Part shown: positions 14,116 to 61,792 of the stretch, piece by piece
Layout of the letters: each line of letters starts with the position of its first letter
Numbering within the stretch: position 1 is the first letter of the stretch
Origin: a virus
Taxonomy: Duplodnaviria > Caudoviricetes
Length of the DNA: 64,000 nt
IMG/VR virus record: IMGVR_UViG_3300023218_000062
Strand: one strand, 5' to 3'
Notes under the pieces: generated by a model
The model's database searches: none
Told to the model about the DNA's origin: nothing
Seen by the model: only the letters and a program-made list of their open reading frames with translations
Position numbers and translations under genes: made by a program

Positions 14116-14153
14116 TTGACAACATCATAAAAATATGATAAAGGTCTTAAGAT
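14116..14153 (+). promoter_or_regulatory. TTGACA-N17-TAAAGG element (plus-strand copy)
   Basis: TTGACA 14116-14121, TAAAGG 14139-14144, then TCT TAAGAT. Confidence 0.7.
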
Positions 14154-39955: not shown

Positions 39956-39997
39956 TTGACATTGATTTGAATATATGATAAAGGTCCTAGGATAGGG
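39956..39997 (+). promoter_or_regulatory. TTGACA-N17-TAAAGG element (plus-strand copy)
   Basis: TTGACA 39956-39961, TAAAGG 39979-39984, TCC TAGGAT AGG. Confidence 0.7.
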
Positions 39998-40200
39998 ATT
40001 AAAAACTTTTACATTTCATTAACCTTTATGCTACACTATGTGTCCCGGCTAACCAAGGAAACATACCCTAAGTGGTATGAAATCCCGTAGGGCATAGAGT
40101 TGTTTCAAAAAAATTCGGAAGCATATTTTTAATAATTCATTGACATAACGAATTTCGTAGATTATACTATTTATCATAAACCGTAAAATAGGAGCTAAGC

Positions 40201-40947
40201 ATGAAATTTGTCGTATATGAATCTGAGTCTGGTTGTAAGTTTCGTTGCACTGAAGCACAACAGGAGACATTGAGAAAGCTGGAAACCATTGTTAAAGGTG
40301 GTATTGGCACCGTTCATGGTTACACAATGAAATCGGGCCGTGTAAAGCCTGAAACGGCTGATATTCAGTTTCTTACTGCATTCTCTACTGAACGTCTTTA
40401 TAGGCGTCGGATTGCGGCATTGGAATCTATCAGCTATGACGATATTGCTGATAATCTTCCAGACAATCCGAAGCTGACGAAACTGACAGAAGATGAGCGC
40501 AGGGAATTGTTCAACACTCGCCGTCAAAAGGAAATTGCCAGTTATCAGAAGTCTCTTGATGGTGACCGTAGTGACGCACATCGACAAGCACATGATCGTT
40601 GCTACTGCAACATCGGTCAAGGTGTGAAGGTTCATTATCGCACCGAAAAGGATGATGATGGCATTCGCCAGCCGATTATGATTAACGGTTTGCCTGTTGT
40701 AGAATCTATCATGCTGACGATTCTCGAAATCAGGCGTAAGGTAATCGAACCGGGCGAGTACAAGACGGTCAATTCTGGCGCTCCAGTGCTTATTTCTAAT
40801 GCGATCAAGTCTACTATGAATCTTCGGTCAGTTGGTCTCAAAACCCTTTCACTGAAAGAAGATAACTTCGACAGGCTTGTACTGGACAAGACGGAGTTCC
40901 TGCCTGAACAGGTTGAAAGTATCCCGGCAGACTTGTTCATTCGGTAA
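40201..40947 (+). CDS. conserved phage hypothetical protein
   Basis: 248-aa ORF, AGGAG SD, higher GC than its flanks. Confidence 0.8.
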   Translation: MKFVVYESESGCKFRCTEAQQETLRKLETIVKGGIGTVHGYTMKSGRVKPETADIQFLTAFSTERLYRRRIAALESISYDDIADNLPDNPKLTKLTEDERRELFNTRRQKEIASYQKSLDGDRSDAHRQAHDRCYCNIGQGVKVHYRTEKDDDGIRQPIMINGLPVVESIMLTILEIRRKVIEPGEYKTVNSGAPVLISNAIKSTMNLRSVGLKTLSLKEDNFDRLVLDKTEFLPEQVESIPADLFIR

Positions 40948-41595
40948 AAGTCTGCCGGGATACTCTAAGAGTCAGTCGTTAATCGGCTGACTCATTTCTG
41001 AACACTTAGACTGACGGCACTCCAAAAACTTTGTATAGGACGTTGTAAATCTTATCAATGCATTGGTAAATAGCTTTCTTTAATTATAGAACATGAGGAT
41101 TAACAAATGAATGAGCGAAATACATACTCTTTGATGCATGGGCTGGAAAAACTATGATACTAGAACTCTTAAACGTACTCTCGGCAATTGCAGTAATCTT
41201 TGTTACAGGGATGATTGCAGGTGCTAAACTCATACTCAAAGTAAGGGAGAAATAAATAAAATTGAATCAATGTCAATACGGTATTTTGGTTGAAAGTGAT
41301 TATGGTGGAGTAGGTATGGTTGTTGGAATCACGAATAATGCAAGAGGCGTAGAGCTTTCTGTATGCAAGAAAAAATTCATACAATTCCAATAGTTCAATG
41401 GTCTTGTGGAGAAACTTCCAGTATTCATCGCGAAAAAATAAAGAAACTCTAATATTCTCTCGAAAAAAGGGATAAGATAATTCTTATCCCTACCGTAGAG
41501 CCTTTATCATGTATTTTAAATAATGTCAAGAGTTTTTTTAATTGGTTTGTTGAGTATCCTATGGTAATATGTCAAGAGTTTTAATAAAGAAATCA

Positions 41596-41766
41596 ATGAT
41601 GAAAAAGATTTTTGTACTAGTGTGTGTTCTACTTATTGCCGGATGCGTTGAAGATTCCGGTCCAGAAGCATACGATGCCGTTGTGTGTAGCTGTATAAAA
41701 CAAGGCAAAGTCATGTACGTACATAAAACGTTTAGTTTTGTTACCGTTGAATGTGTGGACCCATAA
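41596..41766 (+). CDS. small lipoprotein
   Basis: MKKIFVLVCVLLIAGC lipobox. Confidence 0.65.
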   Translation: MMKKIFVLVCVLLIAGCVEDSGPEAYDAVVCSCIKQGKVMYVHKTFSFVTVECVDP

Positions 41767-41808
41767 AAAACAGTTGACAATTGTTTTCTCATATGCGATA
41801 CTACCACT

Positions 41809-43191
41809 ATGAATGATACTATCCTAATAGGAAAAGGCGACGAATCCCAAGTACATTTGCTTGGCAAGTATGCTAATCGTCATGGTCTAGTTGCTGGCGC
41901 TACAGGTACTGGCAAGACGGTAACCCTGATGATGTTGGCCGAAGGTTTTTCCCGTATGGGAGTACCGGTATTCATGGCTGACGTTAAGGGTGATATGGCA
42001 GGTTTGGCAATGCAAGGTGAGGATAATCAAAAGATTCGTGGCCGTGCTGAAAAAATTGGTCTTGATGCTTTTGACTTTTCAAGTAATCCGGTATCCTTTT
42101 GGGATTTATGGGATAAGATTGGTAATCCTATCCGAACAAGCGTAGAAAGCATCGGTGCGACATTGATGGCAAGAATGCTTGATGTTAGTGATGCTCAAGA
42201 GGGTGTACTTGATGTTGTATATCATTATGCAAGAGAACGTGGTATGCCCTTTGAGACTCTCACAGATTTTCGTAAACTGTTGAGTCATATGGCGCAGAAT
42301 CGTGAGTCTATCAGTACCGAATATGGACTAATAAGCGCCAATAGTATCGGAGTCATCCAGCGTCGATTACTCACACTGGAAAATGATGGCATTGATAATT
42401 TCTTTGGTACTCCTGCATTAGAGTTGTCTGATTTCATGCGTGAACAAAATGGCAAGGGTGTTATCAATATTCTTTCTGCTGAAAGTCTTATACTTCGGCC
42501 TAGAATGTATTCCACCTTTTTGCTTTGGTTATTGTCAGAGTTATTCGATAAGATGCCAGAAATTGGTGATGTTGACAAGCCTAGGTTGGTATTCTTTTTT
42601 GATGAAGCTCACTTGTTGTTCGATGATTGCTCGGGTGCATTGCTTCGCAGAGTTGAACAGGTAGTAAGATTGATCCGTTCCAAGGGTGTAGGCGTATACT
42701 TTTGTTCGCAGAACCCTGACGATATACCTGAGACTGTCTTAGGACAGCTTGGCAACCGTGTTCAACATGCACTAAGGGCATTCACTCCAAGAGATCAAAA
42801 AGCCGTTAGAGCGGCTGCTGAGACGTTTGTGGATAATCCTAATATCAATGTTAGTGATATTATTACTCGTTTGGGTGTAGGTGAAGCATTAACATCGATG
42901 TTGGATGACAAGGGTATTCCGCAACCAGTCCAGCGTACAATTATTTCACCGCCACAATGCCGTATCGGTTCTATCACTGATGACGAAAGGATGACTATCG
43001 TTAATAATGATTCATTACAGGAAAAATATGCAAAGTCTGAACCTGAACCGGAGCCAATAATTGAACGTGATACAAATGATTATGTGGAACCCGAACCCGA
43101 ACCCGACCCCGAACCCGAACCTGAACCTGAAAGTTTCGGTACAAGGTTCAAGAGAGAATTTTTGAATATACTCTTGTTTCGCAGAACATAA
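41809..43191 (+). CDS. YjgR/DUF853 HerA-like ATPase
   Basis: ANRHGLVAGATGTGKTVTL, VFMADVKGD, FFFDEAHLLF, VRLIRSKGVGVYFCSQNP.D, QLGNRVQHALRAFTP; (EP)n tail. Confidence 0.92.
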   Translation: MNDTILIGKGDESQVHLLGKYANRHGLVAGATGTGKTVTLMMLAEGFSRMGVPVFMADVKGDMAGLAMQGEDNQKIRGRAEKIGLDAFDFSSNPVSFWDLWDKIGNPIRTSVESIGATLMARMLDVSDAQEGVLDVVYHYARERGMPFETLTDFRKLLSHMAQNRESISTEYGLISANSIGVIQRRLLTLENDGIDNFFGTPALELSDFMREQNGKGVINILSAESLILRPRMYSTFLLWLLSELFDKMPEIGDVDKPRLVFFFDEAHLLFDDCSGALLRRVEQVVRLIRSKGVGVYFCSQNPDDIPETVLGQLGNRVQHALRAFTPRDQKAVRAAAETFVDNPNINVSDIITRLGVGEALTSMLDDKGIPQPVQRTIISPPQCRIGSITDDERMTIVNNDSLQEKYAKSEPEPEPIIERDTNDYVEPEPEPDPEPEPEPESFGTRFKREFLNILLFRRT

Positions 43192-43564
43192 TAGCGCACA
43201 ATATCATTTATGGACAAACATACAGAACAATTATTGGATGAACTCGATTCTGCTGTATTTTCTAGTGATACGTTCCTTGATAAGGAATCATTAGAAAGGT
43301 TGCAGTATTATGTAAATCGCTGGCAGCGGGAAAGTCAAAACATTCAAACTTTCTTAGAACAATGGGATGAGGAGGAATAACACAATGATAGATACACTTG
43401 AATTCTTGGCACTGACAATTGAACAGGAAGCAATTAATGCAACACCGTCTATCGCTAATGAAGATTATGATTCTCGTATTGAGAGAATAGAAAGACGTAA
43501 GGAACAAATGATTAGAAATATTGTCTAAAAAAGTCTTGACAATCCTTGATAAATAGTTTAGACT

Positions 43565-43812
43565 GTAGTTGTGATGATAAATCACGTTTGCAAATACCGA
43601 TGACAAAAACGGTGGACAAGAGTACATCGTGGGGCAACCCTACAGTATCGGCCATGCTGATCCGGTGATGGTGACAAAGATATTGTGAGTCGGACGCCAA
43701 GCGACCGGCCCAAAAAAATTCTCGTTAATAGACTACAAGACTGGTCCTCGCATGACCGTCCCGATGAGTAAGAGCAAAGGTCGTTAATTGATTTGCCACC
43801 AGTCTTGTTTTT
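43565..43812 (+). ncRNA. candidate ncRNA A
   Basis: Promoter TTGACA-17-TAGACT plus GATAAATA; ACGGTG/CATCGT stem plus GGG-GCAA-CCC hairpin; ends in ACAAGACTGGT/ACCAGTCTTGT-T run. Confidence 0.55.
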
Positions 43813-44076
43813 TAAACATATAAAGAAGAAAAAATGGGCGGTATATCAGCACCTATAAAAAGCTGGGGATGGACAGCCCCTTAAATGATATATTAACCCT
43901 TTTTTCTTTTCACCTATAGGAGAAAAGGTCCGGTTATTCGGGACTTTTATTTTTCCTACTCTAGAGCCTTTACCATAGATTGAACCTATTGTCAAGAAAA
44001 TTAATTATAAAATTTTTCTTGATTTCTAAATAGAAGTTCGGTAGAATGCACTAAATCGAATAAGAATGGAAATCAA

Positions 44077-47916: not shown

Positions 47917-47997
47917 TCAAGAATATTTTAATAACTACTTGACAAAACTCAAATTTAAAGGTATAGTTAAAAAATCACATAATACAACATAGGAGTG

Positions 47998-50186: not shown

Positions 50187-50801
50187 TATACTAATGTTTT
50201 CATTCCATAAAGGTTCTAACACAATGCAGACAAGTTTTGATGTTTACCAAAACGGAAAACTGATTCACGTTCTACAATTTAACTACGATGTGAGTCCACA
50301 AAAAATCAAACAGGATATGGGAGAACGCGATGGATTTCAAGGACCATTGTTAGTCGTAAAAAAGCCAATGCTTAAAGTGAAATAACACTTGTCAAGCTAC
50401 TTTGAAACTTCTCAGTATGGAGAATGTTCTTAATTTCAAAACATAGGAATATACCGCATGATTACTAAGCAACAGAATGAAATGATTAGAGAGTTACGTG
50501 ACAGTGGATGCGCGGTCATTATTTTTCCGCTAGAAGACCTGAAGGGTGTTGACCCTGAATTAATTGAAGAAGCGCTAATAGTTGAAGGTAACATTATTAT
50601 TGAGAAATTGTCTCAAGAATGATAGGTAACTACTTGTCTAAAAAGGAAAAATGGACTCTCGCAATTCTTTATATGATAGTAATTATAGAGTTTACAGTTG
50701 TCATATACATGGCATCCAATCAATAATAATTTAAATAGTGGTTGCATTATTTGAATTTTTCTATATAATAGATTTCACATTCATTGATAGGAGAGTATTT
50801 G

Positions 50802-51308
50802 ATGCATACCATTTATGAAGCACGGCAAGAAGTTGAAAAGTGTCTTGAACGTGCAAAGGAACTCTTTGGTTTCAACGCGGATGTTGACATTTCTTTTGAC
50901 AAACGTGGTCGTATTGCTGGAATGGCACATAACTCGCCTAATGGATATGCTTTGAAATTCAATCATCAATTGCTCGAAAACGAACATTGGGGAGAATTGA
51001 TTGATGAAACGATTCCCCATGAGGTAGCGCATATTGTATGCTACTTTAATCCTACTCTTGGTAAGAATCATGACCAAGGCTGGCGTAGAGTATGCAGAAT
51101 GTTGGGTGGTCGTGGTGATCGTACTCATAATATGCCGCTCAAACGTGCTCGGGTGACTCGTAAGGCACTCTATGAGATCAATGGCAAGACTGTTCATGTT
51201 GGTCTTACTGTGCATCGTAGAATCCAACAGGGAAGGGCTTACAATATGCGTAGTGCTGGCAGAATACATCCTACTGACTTCACTGGACAGATTATAAAAA
51301 TGAAATAA
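50802..51308 (+). CDS. SprT-like zinc metalloprotease
   Basis: RGRIAGMA, LKFN..LL, ETIPHEVAHIV, HDQGWRRVCRMLGG. Confidence 0.88.
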   Translation: MHTIYEARQEVEKCLERAKELFGFNADVDISFDKRGRIAGMAHNSPNGYALKFNHQLLENEHWGELIDETIPHEVAHIVCYFNPTLGKNHDQGWRRVCRMLGGRGDRTHNMPLKRARVTRKALYEINGKTVHVGLTVHRRIQQGRAYNMRSAGRIHPTDFTGQIIKMK

Positions 51309-51356
51309 GACTTGACAAAACCCTCGATAGTTGATACTATTATAACTATCGAGGGT

Positions 51357-51523
51357 GTTTTAAGAGTGACTTTAACACTGGCCTTTCATTTTAGCTTTCG
51401 CTCACATTTTAGATTGTTGCCGGTCACACTTTCCTCGGGGGATATTGGATGAATTGATGAATGGTGCGGGTCAATAACCCAATCCTGAAATCACGAAGAT
51501 CAAGTTAGAGTCACTCTTAAAAC
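51357..51523. ncRNA. candidate ncRNA closed by an 18-bp stem
   Basis: TTTAAGAGTGACTTTAAC (51358-51375) pairs with GTTAGAGTCACTCTTAAA (51504-51521); no ORF inside. Confidence 0.5.
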
Positions 51524-52061
51524 ATTTTTAAACATCGGAGCTATGTAATGTCTAAACGACTCGAAGCATTAAGCGAAAAGGTTCGAAAAGGTATTCCCAT
51601 CAACTTTGCAGAAGGCATCGAAGTTATTGAATATCAGGAGCGGTTGCAGGCAGACCGAGAGCGAAAACGTAACAAGACTGTAATAGGCAGACTAATAAAC
51701 TGGATTCAACATAGATACGGGATATAAAAATGAGAACTCTAGAACAAATCGAACAGGAATATCGGAGAGTTAGTGATATTCTTTCATGGGAACCTGTTAC
51801 GGAAGAAGGTTTGTTAGAACTTCCCTTTCCAGACGTCGTATGAATAACAGATTTGTGCGAGGTCGCCTTACTCGGGATCGTTCCGGTACTGTTAGTGTCA
51901 ACATCGATCATACCATGTTGGCATGTAATTTAAATGATGCAATCAGAGCACTACACACCGAAGCAGGTGAAGTGTATTTGAACAATGTTTGACAAATCTG
52001 ACAAAATGAGGTTGAAGATGAATTTGAATGGGATGATTTTATTGAAAGTATTCGTATTAGT

Positions 52062-52373
52062 TTGATAGATAAATTCTCTTCTTTTCGTGTAACTGATAAG
52101 TGGTTGGATCGTGAATCACATGCAATTCTTGAAAACGATTTCGGAACCGTAACGGTTAATGAATATTGCGGCATGGCTGCTATTAGTTTTGTTCCTGTTG
52201 ATTATTCTACCGTTGCACCATATCGGTATGAAACACTTCGTCAAGAAAATTTGTGCTTCGGTTGGATGCGTCAAATTGAACATACATGGAGAAAAATTAT
52301 TGGTCAACATGGAACTTCATTTAATTTACATGGATTTATGTCGAATGGTGTGGGAGTATTTGTAAGAGAATAA
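52062..52373 (+). CDS. hypothetical protein (3' part of a frameshifted gene starting near 51838)
   Basis: FMSNGVGVF end motif; upstream ORF 51786-51992 joins by a frame change. Confidence 0.55.
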   Translation: MIDKFSSFRVTDKWLDRESHAILENDFGTVTVNEYCGMAAISFVPVDYSTVAPYRYETLRQENLCFGWMRQIEHTWRKIIGQHGTSFNLHGFMSNGVGVFVRE

Positions 52374-52537
52374 TTTAACAAATACCCCTTGACAAATCTG
52401 AAATCTATTGTATAATTGTTTCATCATTTTTATAAAGGAACCATAATGTCACCTGATGCAGAATATGTTTTTCATCATATTGACTAATTCAATCGTATGT
52501 GGCATACTATTAAAAATCTATCTAATGGAGATATTAA

Positions 52538-52948
52538 ATGTTTACACTTCAAGATTGCTTCAATGCTGCATGGCACCATTTTATCGAAAATCAAAATCCT
52601 CCATCGGTCTCGTTAGGGGTATGGAGCGATGGTAAATACAAACCAGTGTATAATAATGGCACAAATAAATGTGCAATCGGTCTATTGACTGATGATCTTA
52701 AATATTGGGATGGTAGCATTCAAGAGTTATTTACGGAACAGAAAAAGGAATTCAAGGATCTCATACAACAGTTTAATGTTAATTCAGTCATAGAGGGTAT
52801 TGAAGCATGGCAGGAAGCGCAAAATAGGCTCCATGATGATCTTATTAACTACACAACTGGTGAATGGGCTTGTTCATTTCAAGAGCGTAAAGATAGCTAT
52901 ATTCAGTTTGCGCAGGAATTTGCTTTGAAAATCCCGAATGAACATTAA
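52538..52948 (+). CDS. hypothetical protein
   Basis: GGAG SD; KCAIGLL motif. Confidence 0.65.
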   Translation: MFTLQDCFNAAWHHFIENQNPPSVSLGVWSDGKYKPVYNNGTNKCAIGLLTDDLKYWDGSIQELFTEQKKEFKDLIQQFNVNSVIEGIEAWQEAQNRLHDDLINYTTGEWACSFQERKDSYIQFAQEFALKIPNEH

Positions 52949-52950
52949 CC

Positions 52951-53145
52951 ATGAACATTAATGAAGTTTACGAAAATTTGTGCATTAGGGATTCCAGAAA
53001 TCCGATGTATGATGCATTGAAGGGTCCATATGATACCATGCCTGACCCTAGAATCAATTGTGCGTGCGACAATTGTTTCTATGGTAGAGACAGATTAGCT
53101 CTTGAAATTATTCGATTGCGTATGAAATTGAATTTATATCATTAG
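52951..53145 (+). CDS. Cys-rich hypothetical protein
   Basis: LCIRDSRNP...CACDNCFYGRDRLA. Confidence 0.65.
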   Translation: MNINEVYENLCIRDSRNPMYDALKGPYDTMPDPRINCACDNCFYGRDRLALEIIRLRMKLNLYH

Positions 53146-53260
53146 CGGTCAACAAACTTTTCGATACCTGATATAAATATATCATCATACATGAGGACTT
53201 TCTGGAAACTGGTGTGATACTGGCATTATATTATTAGTTAAGCGCCCTTATACCCCCTCA

Positions 53261-53287
53261 AACCCCCTAACGTATCGTTAGGGGTTT
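53261..53287. repeat. palindrome family copy 3
   Basis: AACCCCCTAACGTATCGTTAGGGGTTT. Confidence 0.75.
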
Positions 53288-53420
53288 AATGTATCTCATT
53301 CTTAACAGTATCCCGTTTAATGTACAGAATGAGATATATTATTATATTTTCAAATTTTTATTGCATTGTTTGGCTAGCCATGATACAATATACTCACATT
53401 CACTAATCAGAGAAACTTAA

Positions 53421-53699
53421 ATGTCTGCCGAAGTTGTCAACGGACGTTTCATGGTTTGTGTTGATTGCGCTATGTTCATCGCTAATGATGATCTTAGCAG
53501 ACTTGATTACCATTTTCTTCCTGATGAAGCGGAACAGCGTGAAATCGCTATCCGTAATAGTGTTCAACATCAAATCAATCAGGGAAATCATATTGTTATG
53601 AGAAATTCTGATGATGATATTGAATTTTCCAAAAGTCCTTGTGATTGTTGTGCCGATCATTTACATGGATATCGTCACCATGCGGTTTTACTTAAATGA
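53421..53699 (+). CDS. zinc-binding hypothetical protein
   Basis: CVDC and FSKSPCDCC...G.RH motifs. Confidence 0.7.
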   Translation: MSAEVVNGRFMVCVDCAMFIANDDLSRLDYHFLPDEAEQREIAIRNSVQHQINQGNHIVMRNSDDDIEFSKSPCDCCADHLHGYRHHAVLLK

Positions 53700-53783
53700 G
53701 AACCATTCTCATTTGACAATAAGAACCATTCTCATTTGACAATAAGAACCATTCTCATTTGACAATAAGAACCATTCTCATTT
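53694..53783. repeat. 23-bp tandem repeat x3.7 of Fur-box-like sites
   Basis: Unit AGAACCATTCTCATTTGACAATA; first unit reads AAATGAGAACCATTCTCATTT. Confidence 0.9.
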
Positions 53784-53984
53784 AACCTTATCTCGATTCA
53801 ACCCTAGATAGTAACATGTAACATCCTGTAAATGCAAGACTTTTTTCATCCTATCCTAGGGCCTTTATCATATCCTGATACCGTTGTCAAGTAATTTTTA
53901 AAAAATTAATTTTTAAATTTCTATTGACAACGCTTTATATCTAAGCGATAATATTTGCACATTCACTGATAAAGGTAACTCGTT

Positions 53985-54293
53985 ATGCGAAAGATTGAAC
54001 AACAAATGATTGAAGCCATTCAAAACAAGCGCAATTGGAAGTCTGGCAATACTTCGGTCGAATACTTACCAGAAATTGAAACAGTTACGCGGGCACGTAT
54101 TGAAATGGCAAAAGTTTATCTTTTCGGTAACTGTATTGCTACCTATTCTTATTATAATAATACGGCTTATATCGTTGCCAGTACGCTTGTAAAATGGCCT
54201 ACTGTTACAACCTTTTCTCGCCTTCGTGCTCTTGGGTTTGATCCTAAATCGGAACTCAAGAGAATTGCAAATAACATACAGGATGCAGCATGA
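53985..54293 (+). CDS. early hypothetical protein (MRKIE...VYLFGN.IA family)
   Basis: Own promoter 53924-53952 and terminator ~54447-54470. Confidence 0.75.
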   Translation: MRKIEQQMIEAIQNKRNWKSGNTSVEYLPEIETVTRARIEMAKVYLFGNCIATYSYYNNTAYIVASTLVKWPTVTTFSRLRALGFDPKSELKRIANNIQDAA

Positions 54294-54606
54294 AAAACAA
54301 TTATCGCAAACTAACCAAGAAACAATGGTATGACCTTGGCGGCTTTGCCACTCCATCATTGTTTCGTCGTGACCGTGGCAAGGGATGGGAATACTATCAG
54401 GATACAGACCACCCTGCTAGTGATTATAACTATAGTGAATAAAGAATCGGGGCTTCGGCCCCTTTTCTTTTATCCTACTCTAGAGCCTTTATCATACAAT
54501 CAAAACAATTGCAACCCATAAATGAAATAATTTATTTTAAATAAGTATTGACTCTTCTGAAAATATCAGTATAATTGTTTACATCATTTCAATAAGGGAA
54601 ATAGTT

Positions 54607-54846
54607 ATGGAAAATGTAAATTTTGCTGGTTTTGAGTCCACCGTTGAATTTGCCACGTATTCGAATGGGCGCACCGCTATTCAGCTTTGTGATGCAAACG
54701 ATGGCCAGCCAATTGCTACGGCAACAGTCAACCTTCCCGATGAACCGATGGCTGAGGATGAGGCTGATATCAAGAACTATAGCGAAAACTCTGGCATATT
54801 AGATGCTTTAATAGACGCTGGGGGTGATTGCCCGCCCGCATCGTGA
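54607..54846 (+). CDS. early hypothetical protein (YSNGRTAIQL...PIATATVNL...IKNYSEN family)
   Basis: Own promoter 54548-54575; C-terminus possibly frameshifted. Confidence 0.7.
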   Translation: MENVNFAGFESTVEFATYSNGRTAIQLCDANDGQPIATATVNLPDEPMAEDEADIKNYSENSGILDALIDAGGDCPPAS

Positions 54847-55118
54847 AATCCCTAGGGGCTTCGTCACCATACCAGTCTGCACCCTTCTGGTCAATCCAAC
54901 TCAATCCTAGTCAGTGAATGGTCTAGGTGGGCACGGTTTTCCGTGCCCTTTTTTAATCCTACTCTAAAGCCTTTATCATATCCTATCCCATGGGGCAACA
55001 ACGTTCGACGGAACTATGTCACAAAAAATTTTACCAATAATTACTAAACCCCTTGCAATCTCTCGAAAAATAATTATAATAGATTCTAACATTCACTAAA
55101 CAAAGGATAGTAGATATT

Positions 55119-55853
55119 ATGCCAAGTCAAGAAATCGTTGAAATTTTCCGGAATCATGGCGTGAACATCACTGCCAACGACAAGAGTACGAAACTGGTCA
55201 GGGTGCTCAAAGAAGAAAACCCTGCATCACTATGGCCCATACTTGAAGAGTTTACTAACAACAAGCCAATCGGCCTTGATGGCTGCAATGAAAGGATGCA
55301 TCATTACACGCTGCAATATGCACTGGTAAGGGCGTTTGAGCAGGACCGTACCAGTATCACTCAAGAAGATATTGACGCTGCCCGTCAAGACGCTGCAAAA
55401 CTCGCTGAATCTCTTTCTACAGGTTCATCTACTCGCGCTGATACAGTAGTCGAAAACGATGATATTGATGATACAGAAAATACCACCAAGGTCGCCAAAA
55501 CTCGAAAACGTGATGCTAGCTTGTATCCATTGATTCTTTCACTTGTCGAAAGCAACATGAAGGCAACACCTAACGAAATTCTCGATATGGTGAAAAAATC
55601 AAAGCCCGACGTTAACGAGTCCACTGCTAAAGTGTACTACAGCAAGGCACGCAATGAACTCAACCTCCCGAAGATCGGTAGGCGTGGCCGTAAGAATTCA
55701 GGTATCTATGACAAGATCAAGGCATTGATTGAAACTAACCCGGCCGCTTATCGTGCTGAAATGATCGAACGCATCGTTAATGAACTTGGAGCCAAGACAG
55801 GCACCGCTCAAGCCTACTACAGCAAGGCAATGAGAGAATTGAGCCTAACCTAG
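55119..55853 (+). CDS. putative DNA-binding protein, paralog of 47998-48708
   Basis: STAKVYYSKARNELNL..IGRRGRK.S and GTAQAYYSKAMREL. Confidence 0.75.
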   Translation: MPSQEIVEIFRNHGVNITANDKSTKLVRVLKEENPASLWPILEEFTNNKPIGLDGCNERMHHYTLQYALVRAFEQDRTSITQEDIDAARQDAAKLAESLSTGSSTRADTVVENDDIDDTENTTKVAKTRKRDASLYPLILSLVESNMKATPNEILDMVKKSKPDVNESTAKVYYSKARNELNLPKIGRRGRKNSGIYDKIKALIETNPAAYRAEMIERIVNELGAKTGTAQAYYSKAMRELSLT

Positions 55854-56061
55854 CTTAAGATCAAAAACTATTCAGGGGGCATCCTATGCCCCCCTGAATT
55901 TTATCCTATTCTAATGCCTTTAACTCATCAATATAATCAACATCTATCAATCAATCAGAATTCATGCACAAATCGGATTTACAATTATTTTCAGAAATCG
56001 GTTGACGATCCTGAAAATATCTGTATAATCCTTAATTACATTCACTGATAGGAGATTACTT

Positions 56062-56337
56062 ATGTATGACCAAGATAACTTGATCGAGATTGGAAACGAA
56101 GCCGTCAAGGCAATCGAAGCGAGCATCGAAGATATGTATCGTGCCATGGAAGACATTAACACGCATTTACTCGGAATGTATGATGCGTTACCTGATTCAA
56201 CCATCAACCATAACGTGAAGGCACTGGACGGCCTTATACCAGCACTGGACGGCCTTATTATTAAAAACGTAAGACCCGGAGTTCTGGAACTTGAACACGA
56301 AATTCATAAACTCAAGCTCAAATTAAGCAAATTGTGA
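56062..56337 (+). CDS. early hypothetical protein with a 21-bp internal duplication
   Basis: AGGAG SD; ALDGLIP-ALDGLI. Confidence 0.7.
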   Translation: MYDQDNLIEIGNEAVKAIEASIEDMYRAMEDINTHLLGMYDALPDSTINHNVKALDGLIPALDGLIIKNVRPGVLELEHEIHKLKLKLSKL

Positions 56338-56588
56338 ATGAATGAATAGGGTTCCGGCCCTTAGCTCACTTTGCCCCGCTGTCAAGCGGGGCTTTTTTTA
56401 TCCTATTCTAATGCCTTTAACTCATCGTCATCCATTTGTCAATACCCTAAGCAAAAATATAATCAACATCTATCAATCAATCAGAATTCATGCACAAATC
56501 GGATTTACAATTATTTTCAGAAATCGGTTGACGATCCTGAAAATATCTGTATAATCCTTAATTACATTCACTGATAGGAGAAAACAAG

Positions 56589-56843
56589 ATGCAGGAACGA
56601 TTCGACAAGATCATGGAAGCCGGAAACAACGGTCGGTTTTTTTCTGTTCGCTTCATCAAGCGGTCCAATGGTGCGGAACGTTTCATGAACTGCCGTCTTG
56701 GAGTCACGAAACACCTCAAGGGCGGTAACAAGGCATACGATGATAAGGCTCACAATCTTGTCACCGTTTACGATCTTCAAGCCGAAGGGTATCGCTGCAT
56801 TCCATTGGAAAGCATCTTTGAACTTAACGGTGAACCTATCTGA
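56589..56843 (+). CDS. small SH3/WYL-like fold phage protein
   Basis: FFSVRFIKR.NG.ER.MNCRLGV..HLKGG...LVTVYDL...GYRCI. Confidence 0.7.
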   Translation: MQERFDKIMEAGNNGRFFSVRFIKRSNGAERFMNCRLGVTKHLKGGNKAYDDKAHNLVTVYDLQAEGYRCIPLESIFELNGEPI

Positions 56844-57050
56844 TAGGTTCAATCGTATCATCAGGAGGATGCGAATCATTCGCATCCTCTTTTTTATCCT
56901 AGGGCCTTTAACTCATCATCAACCATTTGTCAAGAACTTTCGACGGAACTGCATTACATAAAAAAATTTACAATTATTTTCAGAAATCGGTTGACGATCC
57001 TGAAAATATCTGTATAATCCTTAATTACATTCACTGATAAGGGTAACACG

Positions 57051-57938
57051 ATGAACGGAAATCAAAAGATTCACAAGATTGTAGCGCAAGCTTTTATAGA
57101 CCAAATCGAAGCAGGCATGGCGGATGGTAAATGGACTGCTCCATGGGCGAAGTTTGCCACAGACTTTCCGACCAATGCAGTGACAAAAAAGACATACCGT
57201 GGTTTCAATATCTTCTCATTGTGGAGCGCTGGATTCTCATCTCCGTATTGGGCTACCTTTAAGCAATGGAAGTCGATTGATGCCACGGTCAAGAAAGGAT
57301 CAAAAGGTTCATTGGTTGTTTTCTGGAAAATCATCGATTCCAAGACTCGATTCGACGCTAACGGCAATCCTGAAAAGGTTCCCTTCCTGCGATTCTCGAA
57401 CGTATTCAATGCCGATCAAGTTGACGGCTGGACCGCTCCGACACTGGAAGATCGTCCTACCCTTTCAACAAATGAAATTCACGCTGAATGCGACGCAATG
57501 ATCGCAGCAACAGGCGCTGAAATCCAGCATGGCGGCAATATGGCCTGTTACATTCCAAGCCATGACCGCATCCTGCTTCCTGAATTCAACGCCTTCCATG
57601 ATGCGGATTCATACTATCAGACCGCATTCCATGAACTGGCGCATTGGACGGGTCATGCTTCACGACTGGACCGCAATCTTTCAACCCGGTTCGGAAGCAA
57701 TGCATATGCTTTGGAAGAACTGCTAGCAGAACTTACAGCAGCCATTGTGGGCGTTCGTATGGGCATTGATGTCACTACCCGCATGGACCATGCAAAGTAT
57801 GTGAAGAGCTGGCTCACAGCGCTTCGTGAACAGCCTGAATGCCTGATGCATATCGCCAGCAAGGCAAGCAAGGTAGCGGATTACCTGATCGAAGGCGAAG
57901 CAGGTGAAACCGAACAGTATCAAGCGCAAGCCGCTTGA
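57051..57938 (+). CDS. ardC: ArdC-family antirestriction ssDNA-binding protein with zincin-like C-terminus
   Basis: W..PW, P.N..T...YRGFN, WATFKQW, VKKGSKG, VFNADQ, ACY.PS.DRI..P..F, FHELAHWTGH.SRLDR, YA.EEL.AE. Confidence 0.93.
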   Translation: MNGNQKIHKIVAQAFIDQIEAGMADGKWTAPWAKFATDFPTNAVTKKTYRGFNIFSLWSAGFSSPYWATFKQWKSIDATVKKGSKGSLVVFWKIIDSKTRFDANGNPEKVPFLRFSNVFNADQVDGWTAPTLEDRPTLSTNEIHAECDAMIAATGAEIQHGGNMACYIPSHDRILLPEFNAFHDADSYYQTAFHELAHWTGHASRLDRNLSTRFGSNAYALEELLAELTAAIVGVRMGIDVTTRMDHAKYVKSWLTALREQPECLMHIASKASKVADYLIEGEAGETEQYQAQAA

Positions 57939-59028
57939 TTAATCATTAGGTACCATTGAGGATGCGAATCATTCGCATCCTCTTTTTTTATCCTACTTTA
58001 GACCCTTTAACTCATCATCAACCATTTGTCAAGAATTTTCAATTACAACTTTATTCTATATCCGCTTGACTAAACGCTATGGTGCATGGTACTATATACT
58101 CGCATTCACTGAAACATTAGAAATCAAATACAATTCCGATATCATTCAGAGCGAAACCGATTTGGTAGACTCTCTTATCAGCGATACCACGTTCGCTTCA
58201 AAACTGCAACGCAAACCAAACTAGCATATCATATTCATTACAATGACCAATGCGACAAAGTGGTTCGATCTGCTATGTTATGGCGCTATAGATCACTTGG
58301 AAAGTAATTGACAATCCGAAAAGTGTCTGTATAATATAGACTACAGCCTAAGCAAACTAAACAGGTATGAAGATGAATGATTCATTGCAACATCAACAAA
58401 TGGAATGGAATGATCTTGAAGAGAGAGTTACTCATCATGATACCATGAAAGAACTCTCACCGTTAGAGTATCAATGGTTGAAAGATTATCGAATGCACTT
58501 CAATAAGATGTGATGTATAACTATACAGTGGAGATATATACAGTACCATAAACACCATATAGAAAAACTGAAAACAAGTTTGGGATTTTTTTTCTTCTGT
58601 ATATTCATACAGTTGACAGGGGCGTACGGGCCGTGCTAAGCAATTGAGCAAATATTGACCACTTTTTTATATAGAAAGTGTCTCGAAAATTTTGATTAGT
58701 CCTACAGGAGAATATTAGACCCTTTTTTATTTTTTATTATTATTTTTTATCATTTGGTAGGATTTTTCACGATTTATAATAATTTGTGATCGTTTTTCAT
58801 AAGTTGTGGCTGTTTTTCATGAATATTGATAGACACAATTTTATTGTATAAACACAATACAATGTTTTGGCATTGATTCTGCTACACAGAATACAAGTTT
58901 CGGTTTTGTATATATGAAAGGGGGGGGTCTTTTATATAAGGGTTTACATATTATCGAAATTTTTTTCTCAGAGTTTTTATCTGGTATGACTTATACTATA
59001 AAAATATTGAAAGATGTTAAAAATCAGT

Positions 59029-59445
59029 CTATAAATTTGTATAATTATTATATGAAAGTTTTATTTGATGTGATAAACCAGCCGAGGATATTAGTGGTTT
59101 AGATAATAAGTTATCTGCTAAATCTTCTAACAGTGATTCTAAGAAAGCTTCTGATAATGATCCTAAGAAGGAGTCTTCCAATTTGATAGATCGTATTAGT
59201 ACTACACTTAAAAACAATACGTTTTCAGTTAATTTATATGATATGGTAGATTGGTCTGAGCTAGAGGATGGAAGAAACTGAGATGCAATAGAGGGACTAT
59301 CATCAAGAGGGGTCGGAAAATCTGAGAACAGCGAATATGCTTGAAGCTTATATAGAAGGATTGCGTTTAAATAATGCCCTACGAAAAAAGGTATAACATC
59401 TGAGCACATATCTGCAGCAACTACATATTTAAAAGAGCATTTCAA
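59029..59445 (-). CDS. hypothetical protein
   Basis: 138-aa ORF. Confidence 0.5.
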   Translation of the reverse strand: MKCSFKYVVAADMCSDVIPFFVGHYLNAILLYKLQAYSLFSDFPTPLDDSPSIASQFLPSSSSDQSTISYKLTENVLFLSVVLIRSIKLEDSFLGSLSEAFLESLLEDLADNLLSKPLISSAGLSHQIKLSYNNYTNL

Positions 59446-59464
59446 TAGTCTGTGGAATTAAGTT

Positions 59465-59680
59465 TCACCAGACACATTTTTCGTTATACCACTTTGCTAC
59501 TACTGTAGCTACTATAATTTTTGAATTATTTTTTACTTTACAGATAAAGAAACATGGTCCATTATTCGCTACAACGAATTTACCGTAACGTGTAAAGTTT
59601 CTATTCACACAGAACGGTGATTGTTCCCATTTGTCACAAATTCTTCCTTCTTTAACTTTTCTGAAATGATTGAATTCCAC
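59465..59680 (-). CDS. hypothetical protein
   Basis: 71-aa ORF. Confidence 0.45.
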   Translation of the reverse strand: MEFNHFRKVKEGRICDKWEQSPFCVNRNFTRYGKFVVANNGPCFFICKVKNNSKIIVATVVAKWYNEKCVW

Positions 59681-60571
59681 ATATATTTGGAAGATGCTTT
59701 ACTACTAAGCGTTCCAAGAATCTATTGTATGCGTGATGTGTAACACGAATATTTTTTATTTTAGCGTTTAGCACACAGTTTTTAAGAGAGGTAGTGTTTA
59801 TTATATTTTTCTTTATTTTAAAAATTATTAGTTATATAATTTACGATTAGTATTACAGCAATTGTTGAAGGGGATTGTCAAGCTTCTTAAATGATAATGA
59901 TTGTAATTTGGTACTTATTGTGATATACTCATTTGAGATTTGCTGGAAGAAATTGATGGATAAGATAGACAATAGTTACCTATAATTGGAGATGGTTTTT
60001 CGGATAATGATTTTGATAGAATATGTAAAGAGTTATATTTATTTTTAGATGAAGAAAGTCGTGCTATATCGGATGGTATCGGAACTGATATTGAAAAATT
60101 TAATGCATTTTTGTCACAACTTCATCATTCTTATGGTCGTTTTTTAAGGGATGAATTTCATTTATGGAATTCGGACAATCCGATTGTATTGTGGAGCAGG
60201 GAAAAATACGGAATTGATCATGGTGATGATATTTCCAGTATTATTGCTGGGATAGTATTTAATAAAGATCATAAATTCAGAGATTTGGTAATTGATACAT
60301 TAGTTAAGTGATTTCATAAGCATTGGAGGATGTATGGAAACTAAAGACTTGAAGACTATAAGCGCTCTTCAGAAGGCGATTCAATTAGCTCGTATTGCTA
60401 GTGATTGGAATCTTGGTGAAGTTGAGATAGACGAGGAGATGGTTAGTATTCATGAACTAATTGAAGAATTTGAAATGGTTATTAAAGAACTTGATTGAAA
60501 AGCATAGTAGGTAGTAAAACCAGAATGGTTATTGGGATAAATAATATTGACAGAGTTTTCCCGTAAGATAT

Positions 60572-61792
60572 ATGAATATATTAAAGATATTAAAAGAGAT
60601 TGATGGTTTCACTTATAATGAACTATTTAATATTTTAAATGAGAATTACAAGATTGCGTTAGACAAGTTTTCATCTGAAGCAAATACTGATACTATCAAG
60701 GATTATTTTTCCAAGTTTAAGGAACTAGGGAAGAAAAATTTGATTAACAAGGACATATCTTATTGGATTCCCAAGGGTTGGGAAAAATTTAAAGCGGCGG
60801 TAGATGATGCAGAAGGATATGGTAAGTCTAGGACTGAGCATAAGCGTAGTAGAAATGCAGGTAAATCTATTACTATACATGAAGATAATAGATGGCTGAT
60901 TGTTATTCCGTTAGATAAAGATGCAAGTTGTTTTCATGGTCGAAATACTGATTGGTGTACTGCCAAACCCACTGAACCGCATTTTATCAAATATTTTAAT
61001 GAAAACAATATAATACTAATTTATTTTATAGAAAAATTTTCTAATGAAAAATACGCAATTTCATTTAATGAAGATAATAATCAGGTAGAATTGTTTGATA
61101 AGAATGACAATAGCATTAGTAGAGAAGATTTTAAATCAGGCACTGGACGGGATCCTTTAGATATTGTTAATTTGGTTGAGGAAGAGTATTTAGAAAAAAT
61201 AAAATCTTGGAAACAAAATCAGAAACAAGAGCAAAAAGAGGTTAAAGCGGATATTATTAAATACCGGGATGGTAATTATTTTAAAAAGGATGCCCCCAAG
61301 AATAAAATTGAACACTATTTGAGAAATTCTCGTGATGTTGATAACTTGGCGGCTTATATACGAACTTTTGGTTCAGATAATCCAGAAGAATATATATTGA
61401 TGATAGATTCAGGACTATCTACACAAATACTTGGTGATAAGGCACCTGAAAAGGTAAAAAAGGCGGCTATTAATTTATCTCCCCTGAATATTATGCATTT
61501 GGATAATCCATCTGAAGAGCTTCAATTGGTTGCCGTAAAAAGTTTATCAGGTATTCGTTCTGTTTTTAGTGATCACAAAAAAGAAATTTCTGATAAAGTG
61601 GCGTTGGCTGCCATAGATAGATTGCAAGGATCATATAATGGAATATATCTTAGAGATATATTTACTCCTTATCGAAATTATTCTGAGGATGTTCAGATTG
61701 CAGCGGCGAAGAAATATCCGGAAGAAGCATTAAAGTATATCAGGAATCCAACAGATAAAGTTAAACGGATGTTACAACATAAAACACAATAA
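60572..61792 (+). CDS. large-phage protein with WLIVIPL..ASCFHG..TDWCTA domain and C-terminal PSE.LQL repeats
   Basis: 406-aa ORF, MNILKILKE leader, TAAATA upstream. Confidence 0.75.
   Translation: MNILKILKEIDGFTYNELFNILNENYKIALDKFSSEANTDTIKDYFSKFKELGKKNLINKDISYWIPKGWEKFKAAVDDAEGYGKSRTEHKRSRNAGKSITIHEDNRWLIVIPLDKDASCFHGRNTDWCTAKPTEPHFIKYFNENNIILIYFIEKFSNEKYAISFNEDNNQVELFDKNDNSISREDFKSGTGRDPLDIVNLVEEEYLEKIKSWKQNQKQEQKEVKADIIKYRDGNYFKKDAPKNKIEHYLRNSRDVDNLAAYIRTFGSDNPEEYILMIDSGLSTQILGDKAPEKVKKAAINLSPLNIMHLDNPSEELQLVAVKSLSGIRSVFSDHKKEISDKVALAAIDRLQGSYNGIYLRDIFTPYRNYSEDVQIAAAKKYPEEALKYIRNPTDKVKRMLQHKTQ

What the first reader, a model, noticed from the sequence alone, without database searches (positions are those of the whole stretch)
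53340..58530. Array of self-contained single-gene cassettes with interchangeable ends
Seen: at least seven consecutive units of [sigma70 promoter]-[leader ACATTCACT(G/A)A plus SD]-[one ORF]-[GC hairpin terminator in most]-[inverted TAAAGG element]. Promoter blocks are identical over 126 bp and 73 bp, and the terminator AGGATGCGAATCATTCGCATCCT is duplicated (~56866, ~57958). Cargo is GC-richer than the genome and includes ArdC; the same leader precedes the SprT gene (~50777). Established: comparable to T4-type PeSL elements and host-takeover modules. Inference: a recombination-driven, integron-like platform for swapping anti-defence genes, so the uncharacterised cargo genes are prime anti-defence candidates.
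Basis: partly seen in the sequence, partly recalled or inferred. Interest (0 to 1): 0.8.

Follow-up and report, generated by a model that had tools for sequence, protein, structure and literature searches.

The report
Swappable early-gene cassettes with antisense promoter
This stretch of an uncultured T4-like giant phage is a string of small early genes, each with its own promoter and terminator, that related phages have reshuffled at shared linker sequences; this kind of element (PeSL) is already known, but here every linker also carries a conserved backward-facing promoter-like site that is not mentioned in the two PeSL papers I read.

Summary
Positions 53340-58530 hold nine promoter units. 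Seven are complete: near-consensus sigma70 promoter, leader CATTCACTRA plus SD, ORF, T-run with (in six of seven) a GC hairpin terminator, conserved box.

Three co-occurring lineages of this phage carry different cassette sets and orders. The breakpoints lie in the shared intergenic modules, and two cassettes are flanked by direct repeats of a module (126 bp and 112 bp). This matches PeSL-type modular shuffling of T4-type phages (Arbiol 2010; Comeau 2014), a known kind that this scan has met often on other DNA. It is not an integron: no recombinase was found in the ORFs tested and every cassette has its own promoter. Only ArdC is a recognisable anti-defence gene. One conserved cargo looks like a tandem-HTH DNA binder, and one is frameshifted.

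The new part is the "inverted TAAAGG" box. On the strand opposite the gene it reads TTGACA-17 nt-(TGn)TAAAGG, directly after the terminator. It is kept with exact spacing in at least six lineages and flips with gene orientation. The whole module is about 80% identical between phages whose proteins are only 47-63% identical. Its function is inferred only: antisense off-switch, RNAP roadblock or RNAP recycling site.

The parts
53361..53890 (+). Unit 1. Promoter TTGCAT-17-TACAAT (53361-53389), leader 53396-53406, ORF 53421-53699 (92 aa, Cys-rich, phrog_8253). Four 23-bp Fur-box-like tandem repeats at 53695-53786, box 53848-53869. Antisense promoter-like element (PAS) 53862-53890 on the - strand.
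53924..54514 (+). Unit 2. Promoter 53924-53952, leader 53959-53969, ORFs 53985-54293 (102 aa, Pfam Kyano_Gp96) and 54290-54442 (50 aa). Terminator 54449-54462, box 54472-54493, PAS 54486-54514 (-). The unit is absent from lineage B.
54548..54998 (+). Unit 3. Promoter 54548-54575 and ORF 54607-54846 (79 aa). The ORF is truncated by a +1 frameshift in a G-run; the homolog in L030 is 100 aa and aligns in two frames up to 54907. Terminator 54929-54948, box 54956-54977, PAS with a degenerate -35 at 54970-54998 (-). Absent from lineage B.
55053..55929 (+). Unit 4. Promoter 55053-55080, leader 55089-55099, ORF 55119-55853 (244 aa). The protein is conserved in all relatives at 44-98% identity; its paralog at 47995-48708 is 40-41% identical. 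Its predicted C-terminal half is a tandem three-helix HTH. Terminator 55875-55893, box 55903-55924. The PAS -35 has been lost through a 29-nt deletion relative to L007.
55930..56455 (+). Unit 5, a 526-bp cassette flanked by perfect 126-bp direct repeats (55930-56055 and 56456-56581). Promoter 56002-56029, leader 56038-56048, ORF 56062-56337 (91 aa). Terminator 56373-56392, box 56400-56421, PAS 56414-56442 (-). In lineage B the same gene sits between the 92-aa and 147-aa genes and has a different promoter core.
56456..56933 (+). Unit 6. Promoter 56528-56555, leader 56564-56574, ORF 56589-56843 (84 aa; weak WYL_2 match, phrog_2267). Terminator 56863-56891, box shortened by 3 nt, PAS 56905-56933 (-).
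56966..58032 (+). Unit 7. Promoter 56991-57018, leader 57027-57037, ArdC 57051-57938 (295 aa). Terminator 57958-57982, box 57990-58011, PAS 58004-58032 (-).
58067..58300 (+). Unit 8. Promoter TTGACT-18-TACTAT and leader GCATTCACTGA (58102-58112), but no ATG-initiated ORF. It is either a gene remnant or a short RNA.
58308..58513 (+). Unit 9. Promoter TTGACA-16-TATAAT (58308-58335) and ORF 58367-58513 (48 aa). It has no terminator and no box. An AT-rich stretch without a convincing gene follows, up to about 60500.
50736..51308 (+). SprT-like gene (50802-51308, 168 aa), preceded by the same type of leader: ACATTCATTGATAGGAG at 50777.
39956..44000 (.). Further copies of the TTGACA-17-TAAAGG element outside the array. 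They lie at 39956-39984 (+, at the head of the + strand early block), 41501-41529 (-, after a hairpin) and 43967-43995 (-, after the terminator of a structured RNA). One more lies at 14116-14144 (+).

Best explanation
The array is the hyperplastic early region of an uncultured T4-like jumbo phage, built from autonomous single-gene transcription units.

The units are joined by one conserved intergenic module of about 170-215 bp. In order, the module holds:
- a GC hairpin with T-run (intrinsic terminator);
- the box, which is an inverted sigma70-type promoter-like element;
- an A/T-rich stretch;
- a near-consensus sigma70 promoter;
- a fixed leader (CATTCACTGA) with SD.

Because the same module recurs many times in one genome and in co-infecting relatives, the phage's general homologous recombination system probably crosses over within modules. 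That would delete, insert, replace or move whole expression-ready cassettes, possibly through excised circles. This is the PeSL mechanism of T4-type phages, and no dedicated recombinase is needed.

Shown here: the parts, their repetition, cassette polymorphism among three lineages, breakpoints inside modules, and direct module repeats flanking two lineage-specific cassettes.

Inferred: that recombination is homologous, that circles form, that the genes are early, and that the cargo (apart from ArdC) deals with host defence.

The inverted element TTGACA-17-(TGn)TAAAGG most likely binds host sigma70 RNA polymerase head-on against the terminator. My preferred reading is a built-in convergent promoter that makes antisense RNA or blocks read-through, and so limits each early cassette.
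For: Phage identity and layout:
- rIIA, Rnl1-type and Rnl2-type RNA ligases and 15 tRNA genes are present.
- About 20 near-consensus + strand promoters lie between 40 and 58.6 kb.

Cassette orders in the three lineages:
- A (window, L005): 136|64|92|102+50|79|244|91|84|ArdC.
- B (L007, L024): 169|173|100|136|64|92|91|147|244|84|ArdC.
- C (L030, from the same sample as L005): 169'|166|173'|88|149|106|110|100'|136'|64'|92|102+50|100|78|244.
- Sources.

Breakpoints between A and B:
- Homology switches inside the box or PAS: L007 9232-9259 matches both window 56392-56419 and window 53840-53867.
- It also switches in a promoter spacer (window 53940) and just before a terminator (window 54909).
- The promoter core of the 91-aa gene is swapped (differences cluster at 56008-56037) while its ORF differs at a single base.
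- Divergence is mosaic: 99.8% identity across 84|ArdC against 93-96% elsewhere, with the change falling in a module.

Insertion signatures:
- The 91-aa cassette in A is flanked by perfect 126-bp repeats, giving a 526-bp unit.
- The 78-aa cassette in C is flanked by 112-bp repeats at 91% identity, giving a 435-bp unit.

Module conservation:
- Modules are 76-87% identical between the window and L009, although ArdC, SprT and the 244-aa protein are only 48, 47 and 63% identical.

Absence of a recombinase:
- No recombinase family was found in the ORFs tested.

The inverted element (PAS):
- The window has 9 exact matches to TTG[AC][CA]A-16 to 18 nt-TAAAGG (eight TTGACA, one TTGCAA, all with 17-nt spacing), against 0.19 expected.
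- L030 has 7 copies, L009 8 to 10, L019 3 and L020 1.
- Apart from two copies in the window (14116, 39956), they are always opposite to the adjacent gene and next to its terminator, on either strand.
- A TG lies one base upstream of TAAAGG in most copies. The search pattern did not impose this.
Against: - Nothing was observed in action.
- Only three close lineages and a few fragments were available. The 270,653-bp relative and the rest of the phage's own genome could not be fetched.
- Some junctions show only short homology, for example within a promoter spacer, so illegitimate or microhomology events also contribute.
- Lineages A and L005 (99.7% identical) have the same order, so rearrangement is not frequent on short time scales.
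- TAAAGG lacks the -7 T that sigma70 needs for efficient opening, so the inverted element may not fire at all with host polymerase.
- Two copies (14116 and 39956) do not face a gene's terminator.
Confidence: 0.8

Rival explanations
1. Integron-like site-specific platform. On this reading the box, or the hairpin plus box, is an attC-like site cut and joined by a dedicated recombinase that captures and excises cassettes.
For: - A conserved ~22-nt box adjoins each terminator, which is a hairpin in all units but unit 1.
- Some crossovers map within the box.
- Arbiol et al. left open the possibility of a helper recombinase.
Against: - No integrase, resolvase or other recombinase family was found in the ORFs tested between 46 and 64 kb.
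- Every cassette has its own promoter, and there is no common Pc or attI.
- Crossovers also fall in promoter spacers, in promoter blocks (the 126-bp repeats) and upstream of terminators, so there is no single site.
- In distant relatives only the promoter-like core of the box is conserved, not a palindromic recombination site.
Confidence: 0.06
2. The inverted element is not an antisense promoter. It would instead be a parking site for RNA polymerase: strong -35, 17-nt spacer and TG, but a poor -10. A bound polymerase would cover the T-run and hairpin and act as a head-on roadblock that makes termination tight and insulates cassettes. Alternatively the site would capture polymerases sliding off the terminator for re-use.
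For: - The element starts 8-14 nt from the T-run, so a polymerase footprint (about -55 to +20) would cover the terminator.
- The -7 position is G in all copies, which should slow opening (established sigma70 knowledge).
- E. coli RNAP can slide after termination and re-initiate at promoters of either orientation (PMC11364550).
Against: - There is no direct evidence.
- A site made only for binding would not obviously need an exact 17-nt spacer together with conserved T-12 and A-11.
- Two copies are not next to a terminator (14116, 39956).
Confidence: 0.25
3. The inverted element is the promoter class of a later phase, recognised by polymerase carrying a phage-encoded or phage-modified specificity factor. 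Turning on the next phase would then silence each early cassette by antisense transcription.
For: - The non-canonical but invariant TAAAGG contrasts with the TATAAT of all sense promoters.
- Two copies face forward, at the head of gene blocks (14116 before the ORF at 14304, and 39956).
- Other phages appear to use cis-antisense RNAs for temporal control (PMC5563952).
Against: - TAAAGG is not enriched overall in the window. I counted 56 copies on both strands, against roughly 44 that I estimate from base composition alone.
- It does not precede other genes.
- No sigma-like or MotA/AsiA-like gene was identified in the window.
- The conserved TTGACA argues for unmodified sigma70 region 4.
Confidence: 0.2
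4. The array is a static product of local tandem duplication of a regulatory region. On this reading, differences among relatives reflect only deletions, and the modules have no role in mobility.
For: - Promoter blocks are identical within the genome.
- Lineage A and L005 share one order.
Against: - The 91-aa cassette occupies different positions in A and B, with a different promoter core.
- Lineage C combines B-type upstream genes with A-type cassettes and also has five cassettes of its own.
- Unrelated ORFs occupy the same slot between conserved leader and terminator sequences.
Confidence: 0.07

Closest known systems
PeSL (promoter-early stem-loop) cassettes of T4-type phages: RB49/phi1, PST/T4, nt-1/KVP40 (Arbiol et al. 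2010, PMC2839356; Comeau et al. 2014, PMC4122927)
   Same: - The host genome is a T4-like phage and the region is hyperplastic, made of small ORFans.
- The composite intergenic motif holds a strong sigma70-like promoter, a stem-loop terminator just upstream, an A/T-rich stretch and an SD.
- Copies are conserved over at least 100 bp.
- Indels, replacements and displacements between close relatives sit at the motifs.
- Cassettes are flanked by module repeats, as the mini-circle model predicts.
   Different: - The module here is longer, about 170-215 bp.
- It contains a fixed 5' leader (CATTCACTGA).
- It contains an inverted TTGACA-17-TAAAGG promoter-like element between the terminator and the promoter. 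Neither PeSL paper mentions any antisense, convergent or bidirectional element.
- The module is kept at about 80% identity between phages whose proteins are only about 50-60% identical.
- Circles were not tested.
Integrons (IntI, attI, attC cassettes, Pc promoter)
   Same: It is an array of single-gene cassettes whose content varies between relatives, and excised circles are a plausible intermediate. Arbiol et al. drew the same analogy.
   Different: No integrase was found, there is no attI or attC, each cassette has its own promoter and terminator, and crossovers are not confined to one site.
Morons of lambdoid phages (promoter-gene-terminator units)
   Same: They are autonomous transcription units that carry accessory genes.
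   Different: Morons lack conserved flanking linkers and are thought to insert by illegitimate recombination (discussion in PMC2839356). Here the linkers are the conserved, repeated part.
Convergent-promoter transcriptional interference and cis-antisense control in phages (for example PAK_P3/PAK_P4 asRNAs, PMC5563952), and post-termination RNAP recycling (PMC11364550)
   Same: A promoter faces an upstream transcription unit, and a promoter of opposite orientation lies within sliding distance of a terminator.
   Different: Here the element is a standard part of a repeated, mobile linker: one per cassette, with a non-canonical -10 and a fixed position beside the terminator. No expression data exist for it.

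Membership tests
PeSL cassettes of T4-type phages | Host genome is a T4-type phage | tested here: inconclusive
   rIIA (tblastn best hits at 32-42% identity to Xanthomonas jumbo phages and T4-like Aeromonas phages), T4 Rnl1-type ligase and 15 tRNA genes are present. Core structural genes lie outside the window and no whole genome was available.
PeSL cassettes of T4-type phages | Composite intergenic motif with a strong sigma70-like promoter, a stem-loop acting as terminator and an SD, repeated many times | tested here: met
   Nine promoter units were found, six of them with GC hairpins followed by T-runs. Promoters match the consensus at 10-12 of 12 positions. Function is predicted from sequence only.
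PeSL cassettes of T4-type phages | Sequence conservation between copies over about 100 bp, enough for homologous recombination | tested here: met
   Promoter blocks are identical over 126 bp and 74 bp, the terminator is identical over 31 nt, and the box family has 7 copies.
PeSL cassettes of T4-type phages | Location in a hyperplastic region of small ORFans | tested here: met
   The ORFs are 48-295 aa long. Of the nine cargo ORFs tested, six matched no family above its curated cut-off or only a family of unknown function, and three matched nothing.
PeSL cassettes of T4-type phages | Insertions, deletions, replacements and displacements between close relatives coincide with the motifs | tested here: met
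   Lineages A, B and C were compared. Breakpoints lie in the box or PAS, in promoter blocks and at terminator edges, and direct module repeats flank the 91-aa and 78-aa cassettes.
PeSL cassettes of T4-type phages | Formation of excised mini-circles during infection | not testable with these tools
Integron | Adjacent IntI tyrosine recombinase gene | tested here: not met
   Pfam scans found no recombinase family in any ORF of at least 100 aa between 46 and 64 kb, in the array ORFs, or in several larger ORFs elsewhere. The rest of the genome was not available.
Integron | Promoterless cassettes expressed from a common Pc | tested here: not met
   Each cassette has its own near-consensus promoter and, in all but units 1, 8 and 9, its own hairpin terminator.
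Integron | attC recombination sites (structured imperfect palindromes with R and L boxes) | not tested
   No attC model was available. By eye the box lacks the RYYYAAC/GTTRRRY cores. Its conserved part in distant relatives is TTGACA-17-TAAAGG.
ArdC anti-restriction proteins | N-terminal ArdcN ssDNA-binding domain plus C-terminal zincin metalloprotease domain | tested here: met
   PF08401 at 1e-28 (residues 6-119) and PF18818 at 1e-45 (residues 146-270), phrog_7245 at 8e-82, and PDB 6I89/6SNA at 7e-47.

The most novel reading that the evidence does not exclude
Each early cassette of this phage clade carries, as a fixed part of its mobile linker, a convergent sigma70-type promoter with an unusual -10 (TTGACA-17-TGnTAAAGG) set hard against its terminator. 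This would be a portable per-gene off-switch, insulator or polymerase-recycling site that travels with the cassette. It would add a regulatory layer to PeSL elements that neither PeSL paper read here mentions, and it would explain why the linker is far better conserved than the genes it joins.
Probability: 0.4. Interest if true: 0.65.

Novelty: new variant of a known kind. Interest (0 to 1): 0.45.

Why it matters
- It extends PeSL-type modular gene shuffling to an uncultured lineage of T4-like jumbo phages, apparently from saline or soda lakes. The evidence comes from co-occurring natural variants in the same samples rather than from cultured pairs.
- It shows a linker under strong conservation: about 80% nucleotide identity where proteins have drifted to about 50-60%.
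- It also offers a concrete, testable element, the inverted TTGACA-17-TAAAGG site beside every terminator. This could show how phages insulate or time many independent early genes.
- For anti-defence discovery the array gives a short list of lineage-variable early genes next to ArdC, but their role is unproven.

Tried and rejected
Searches that gave nothing useful:
- Megablast of the array against 50,697 phage records found no match. tblastn of the 244-aa protein found none.
- IMG/VR scans with the promoter, the box, an L009-type PAS and two proteins found nothing or single chance hits in coding DNA.
- The one metagenome scan with the box gave 3 chance hits.
- No whole genome is held for this window.
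- The 270,653-bp relative (P0001, P0096) could not be fetched.
- Rfam had no family match in 50000-60600.
- PDB sequence searches were uninformative for four cargo proteins.
- A PHROG scan of the 31-aa out-of-frame tail of unit 3 found nothing. The frameshift was shown instead by the two-frame alignment to L030.

Readings considered and rejected:
- Stop-codon recoding as the cause of the many short ORFs: no code improved coverage convincingly.
- The box as a + strand MotA-type middle promoter (GCCTTTA against TGCTTTA): no -10 lies at a consistent distance.
- The box as a + strand sigma70 promoter (TTTTCA-17-TATCAT): this is present only in a subset of copies.
- TTGTCA as a + strand -35: it works in only one or two copies (56436; L007 8750 and 10820).
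- A minus-strand ORF behind the inverted element: only chance ORFs are there.

Full report
**What the window is**

The window comes from an AT-rich phage (35% GC). It encodes rIIA (18217-20670), T4 Rnl1-type and Rnl2-type RNA ligases, an intein-bearing AAA protein, a HerA-like ATPase and 15 tRNA genes. No near DNA match exists among 50,697 deposited phage genomes. Earlier notes of this scan call it an uncultured T4-like jumbo phage. The collection lists a 246,638-bp contig for its proteins, but no whole genome was available to me. Stop-codon recoding does not explain the many short ORFs. From about 39.9 to 58.5 kb all genes are on the + strand. This block is richer in GC (0.39) and holds about 20 near-consensus sigma70 promoters. 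That is the layout of an early region.

**The observation**

Between 53361 and 58513 there are nine promoter units. Seven are complete. A complete unit holds:
- a promoter TTGACx-16/17-TATAAT, matching the consensus at 10-12 of 12 positions;
- a leader beginning about 7 nt after the -10 with (A)CATTCACTRA, followed by GGAG or AAGG;
- one ORF (two overlapping ORFs in unit 2);
- a GC hairpin with a T-run, which is missing in unit 1;
- directly after the T-run, the box ATCCTAYTCTARNGCCTTTAWC.

- 126-bp blocks are identical at 55930 and 56456, and 74 bp recur at 56966.
- A 31-nt terminator is identical at 56865 and 57958.
- The box gives 7 matches against 0.02 expected.
- All six exact leader matches in the window lie in the array, and a one-mismatch copy precedes SprT.

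ArdC is secure. The GC content of the cargo is 0.38-0.49. Three corrections apply. Unit 8 has no credible ORF. Unit 3's ORF carries a +1 frameshift in a G-run, while its homolog in L030 is an intact 100 aa and aligns to the window in two frames. Unit 4's box has lost 29 nt.

**Do relatives differ?**

Exact-protein look-ups recovered three lineages from the same set of samples.
- Lineage A is the window and L005. L005 is 99.7% identical to the window and has the same order.
- Lineage B is L007, L024 and L025.
- Lineage C is L030, which comes from the same JGI sample as L005.

The cassette orders are:
- A: 136|64|92|102+50|79|244|91|84|ArdC
- B: 169|173|100|136|64|92|91|147|244|84|ArdC
- C: 169'|166|173'|88|149|106|110|100'|136'|64'|92|102+50|100|78|244

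So units 2 and 3 are missing from B, which has an unrelated 147-aa gene in their place. The 91-aa cassette sits at a different position in A and B. Lineage C combines B-type and A-type parts and adds cassettes of its own. More distant relatives place the 244-aa homolog among quite different neighbours (L019 83%, L009 63%, L020 59%, L017 48%). Order and content are therefore not invariant.

**Where the breaks are**

Between A and B, homology switches in three kinds of place:
- inside the box (L007 9232-9259 aligns both to window 56392-56419 and to window 53840-53867);
- inside a promoter spacer (window 53940);
- just upstream of a terminator (window 54909).

The 147-aa ORF thus sits exactly between a conserved promoter region and a conserved terminator. 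The 91-aa gene keeps its ORF (one difference), its leader and its upstream block, but has a different promoter core (differences cluster at 56008-56037). In the window three successive cassettes share one identical promoter, which points to gene conversion. Divergence is mosaic: 99.8% identity across 84|ArdC against 93-96% to the left, and the change lies in a module.

Two lineage-specific cassettes are flanked by direct repeats of the module:
- The 91-aa cassette in A has perfect 126-bp repeats and a 526-bp unit.
- The 78-aa cassette in C has 112-bp repeats at 91% identity and a 435-bp unit.

That is the footprint expected if a circle carrying one module integrates by homologous recombination, or equally the substrate for excision. 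No recombinase family was found in any ORF tested around the array.

**Comparison with the known**

This is the PeSL concept. Arbiol et al. (PMC2839356) described composite motifs of strong sigma70-like promoters and stem-loop terminators in hyperplastic regions of T4-type phages. They showed that differences between RB49 and phi1 sit at these motifs, and they detected excised mini-circles. They themselves compared the cassettes with integrons. Comeau et al. (PMC4122927) extended the concept to T4/PST and to the 245-kb KVP40/nt-1 pair, where the stem-loop lies just upstream of the promoter as it does here. The features that can be tested from sequence are met; circles cannot be tested. The integron features that I tested are not met. 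This scan has reported PeSL-like arrays on other genomes many times. The core of the finding is therefore a new member of a known kind.

**What is new: the box is an inverted promoter-like element**

Read on the strand opposite to the gene, the box and the 23 nt after it are TTGACA, exactly 17 nt, TAAAGG. About 14 nt, the A-run and the hairpin follow.
- The window has 9 exact matches to TTG[AC][CA]A-16 to 18 nt-TAAAGG (eight TTGACA and one TTGCAA, all with a 17-nt spacer) against 0.19 expected. It also has two decayed copies.
- L030 has 7 copies, L019 has 3 and L020 has 1. L009 has 8, plus two variants with an 18-nt spacer or a weaker -35.
- In L009, where one gene block is inverted, the element flips with the genes. 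In the relatives it always points back into the adjacent gene's terminator, and most strong terminators there have one.
- Across lineages the 17-nt spacer sequence and the stretch after TAAAGG diverge freely. The hexamers, the spacing and a TG one base before TAAAGG persist, and the search did not impose the TG.

This is the conservation pattern of a sigma70 extended -10 promoter, except that positions -8 and -7 are GG instead of AT. Readings on the + strand (MotA box, weak sigma70 promoter) are not consistent between copies. Neither PeSL paper mentions an antisense, convergent or bidirectional element.

**The module as a whole**

An alignment of terminator-to-start-codon regions shows that hairpin, box, inverted element, a conserved spacer (GAACTTTCGACGGAACTGCA...), an A/T-rich stretch, promoter and leader (TCACTGA) are shared between the window and L009. 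Their identity is 76-87%. Yet ArdC, SprT and the 244-aa protein of the two phages are only 48, 47 and 63% identical. Apart from two gene fragments, these modules are the only blastn matches between the two sequences. The linker is therefore under strong constraint, or spreads horizontally, or both.

**How it probably works**

*Shown.* The parts and their order, cassette polymorphism, breakpoints in modules, and flanking repeats.

*Inferred with good support (0.8).* General homologous recombination between modules reshuffles expression-ready cassettes among co-infecting relatives.

*Inferred with weak support.* The role of the inverted element. A polymerase bound there would cover the T-run and part of the hairpin, and so would meet the sense polymerase head-on at the termination point. 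It could act in three ways:
- It could fire and give antisense RNA over the 3' part of the gene, reducing or ending early expression.
- It could sit as a roadblock that tightens termination and insulates cassettes.
- It could catch polymerases that slide off the terminator. E. coli RNAP is known to do this and to re-initiate in either orientation (PMC11364550).

Antisense RNAs are thought to take part in temporal control in other phages (PMC5563952). The GG at -8/-7 suggests slow opening, or dependence on a phage factor. No transcript data could be obtained.

**Cargo**

- Only ArdC has a known anti-defence role.
- The 244-aa protein is present in every relative found and has a paralog at 47995-48708. 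Its model (pLDDT 78) has an N-terminal helical domain, a disordered acidic and basic linker and two C-terminal three-helix bundles. These resemble bipartite HTH DNA-binding domains (paired, mariner, double homeodomain), but Foldseek E-values are weak at 0.08-0.3. It looks like a conserved early DNA-binding protein.
- The 102-aa protein belongs to Pfam Kyano_Gp96. The 84-aa protein matches WYL_2 weakly. The 92-aa protein is Cys-rich.
- The 91-, 50- and 48-aa proteins match nothing.

The claim that these genes are anti-defence genes remains untested.

**Verdict**

This is a PeSL-type shuffling platform, not an integron. It carries an additional conserved inverted promoter-like element whose function is open.

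Noticed in passing
window 53695-53786; L007 8610-8655; L030 8741-8903; also window 13880-14055: A 23-bp tandem repeat holding the palindrome AATGAGAACCATTCTCATT (Fur-box-like) follows the Cys-rich 92-aa gene in all three lineages. The copy number differs: 4 in A, 2 in B and 5 in C. Similar Fur-box-like sites (for example AAATGATAATGATTCTCATTT) cluster just upstream of the forward-facing TTGACA-17-TAAAGG element at 14116.
   Followed up: partly
window 54820-54910: The ORF of unit 3 carries an extra G in a G-run, which truncates it to 79 aa. The L030 homolog is an intact 100 aa. L005 is identical to the window across this stretch, so it carries the same extra G and this is probably not a read error.
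   Followed up: yes
window 54908-54921; L007 6297-6310 and 9797-9810; L019 606-620: One terminator subfamily is preceded by TCAGTGAATGG, the reverse complement of the 5' leader CCATTCACTGA. A transcript from the inverted element would therefore carry the standard leader motif after its 5' hairpin. Alternatively the 5' and 3' ends of the sense mRNA could pair.
   Followed up: no
window 58530-60500: An AT-rich stretch (about 0.30 GC) with no convincing ORF follows the array. It contains homopolymer runs, short repeats and one GC hairpin (58617-58640). It may be a regulatory region, a replication region or a genome end.
   Followed up: no
L024 about 8200 (JGI Ga0248485_1003233): This lineage B variant has a 20-bp deletion that breaks the otherwise conserved 244-aa gene into pieces.
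   Followed up: partly
window 47995-48708 and 55119-55853: The 244-aa cargo has a paralog of 237 aa, 40-41% identical, 6.4 kb upstream in the same early block. Both have the tandem YYSKA-containing helical repeats.
   Followed up: partly
window 49033-49034 versus L007 2461-2762: Lineage B has 302 bp more here, which gives an intact 227-aa ORF. In the window the region is split into short ORFs, so this is probably a deletion remnant.
   Followed up: no
P0107 and P0108: The collection lists 270,653 bp as the longest contig both for a 102-aa protein 100% identical to unit 2's and for the 84% version (P0108, also on L030). The other genes known from that contig are 80-95% identical to the window's. 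This could mean two copies, or a very recent transfer of that cassette. I could not fetch the contig.
   Followed up: no
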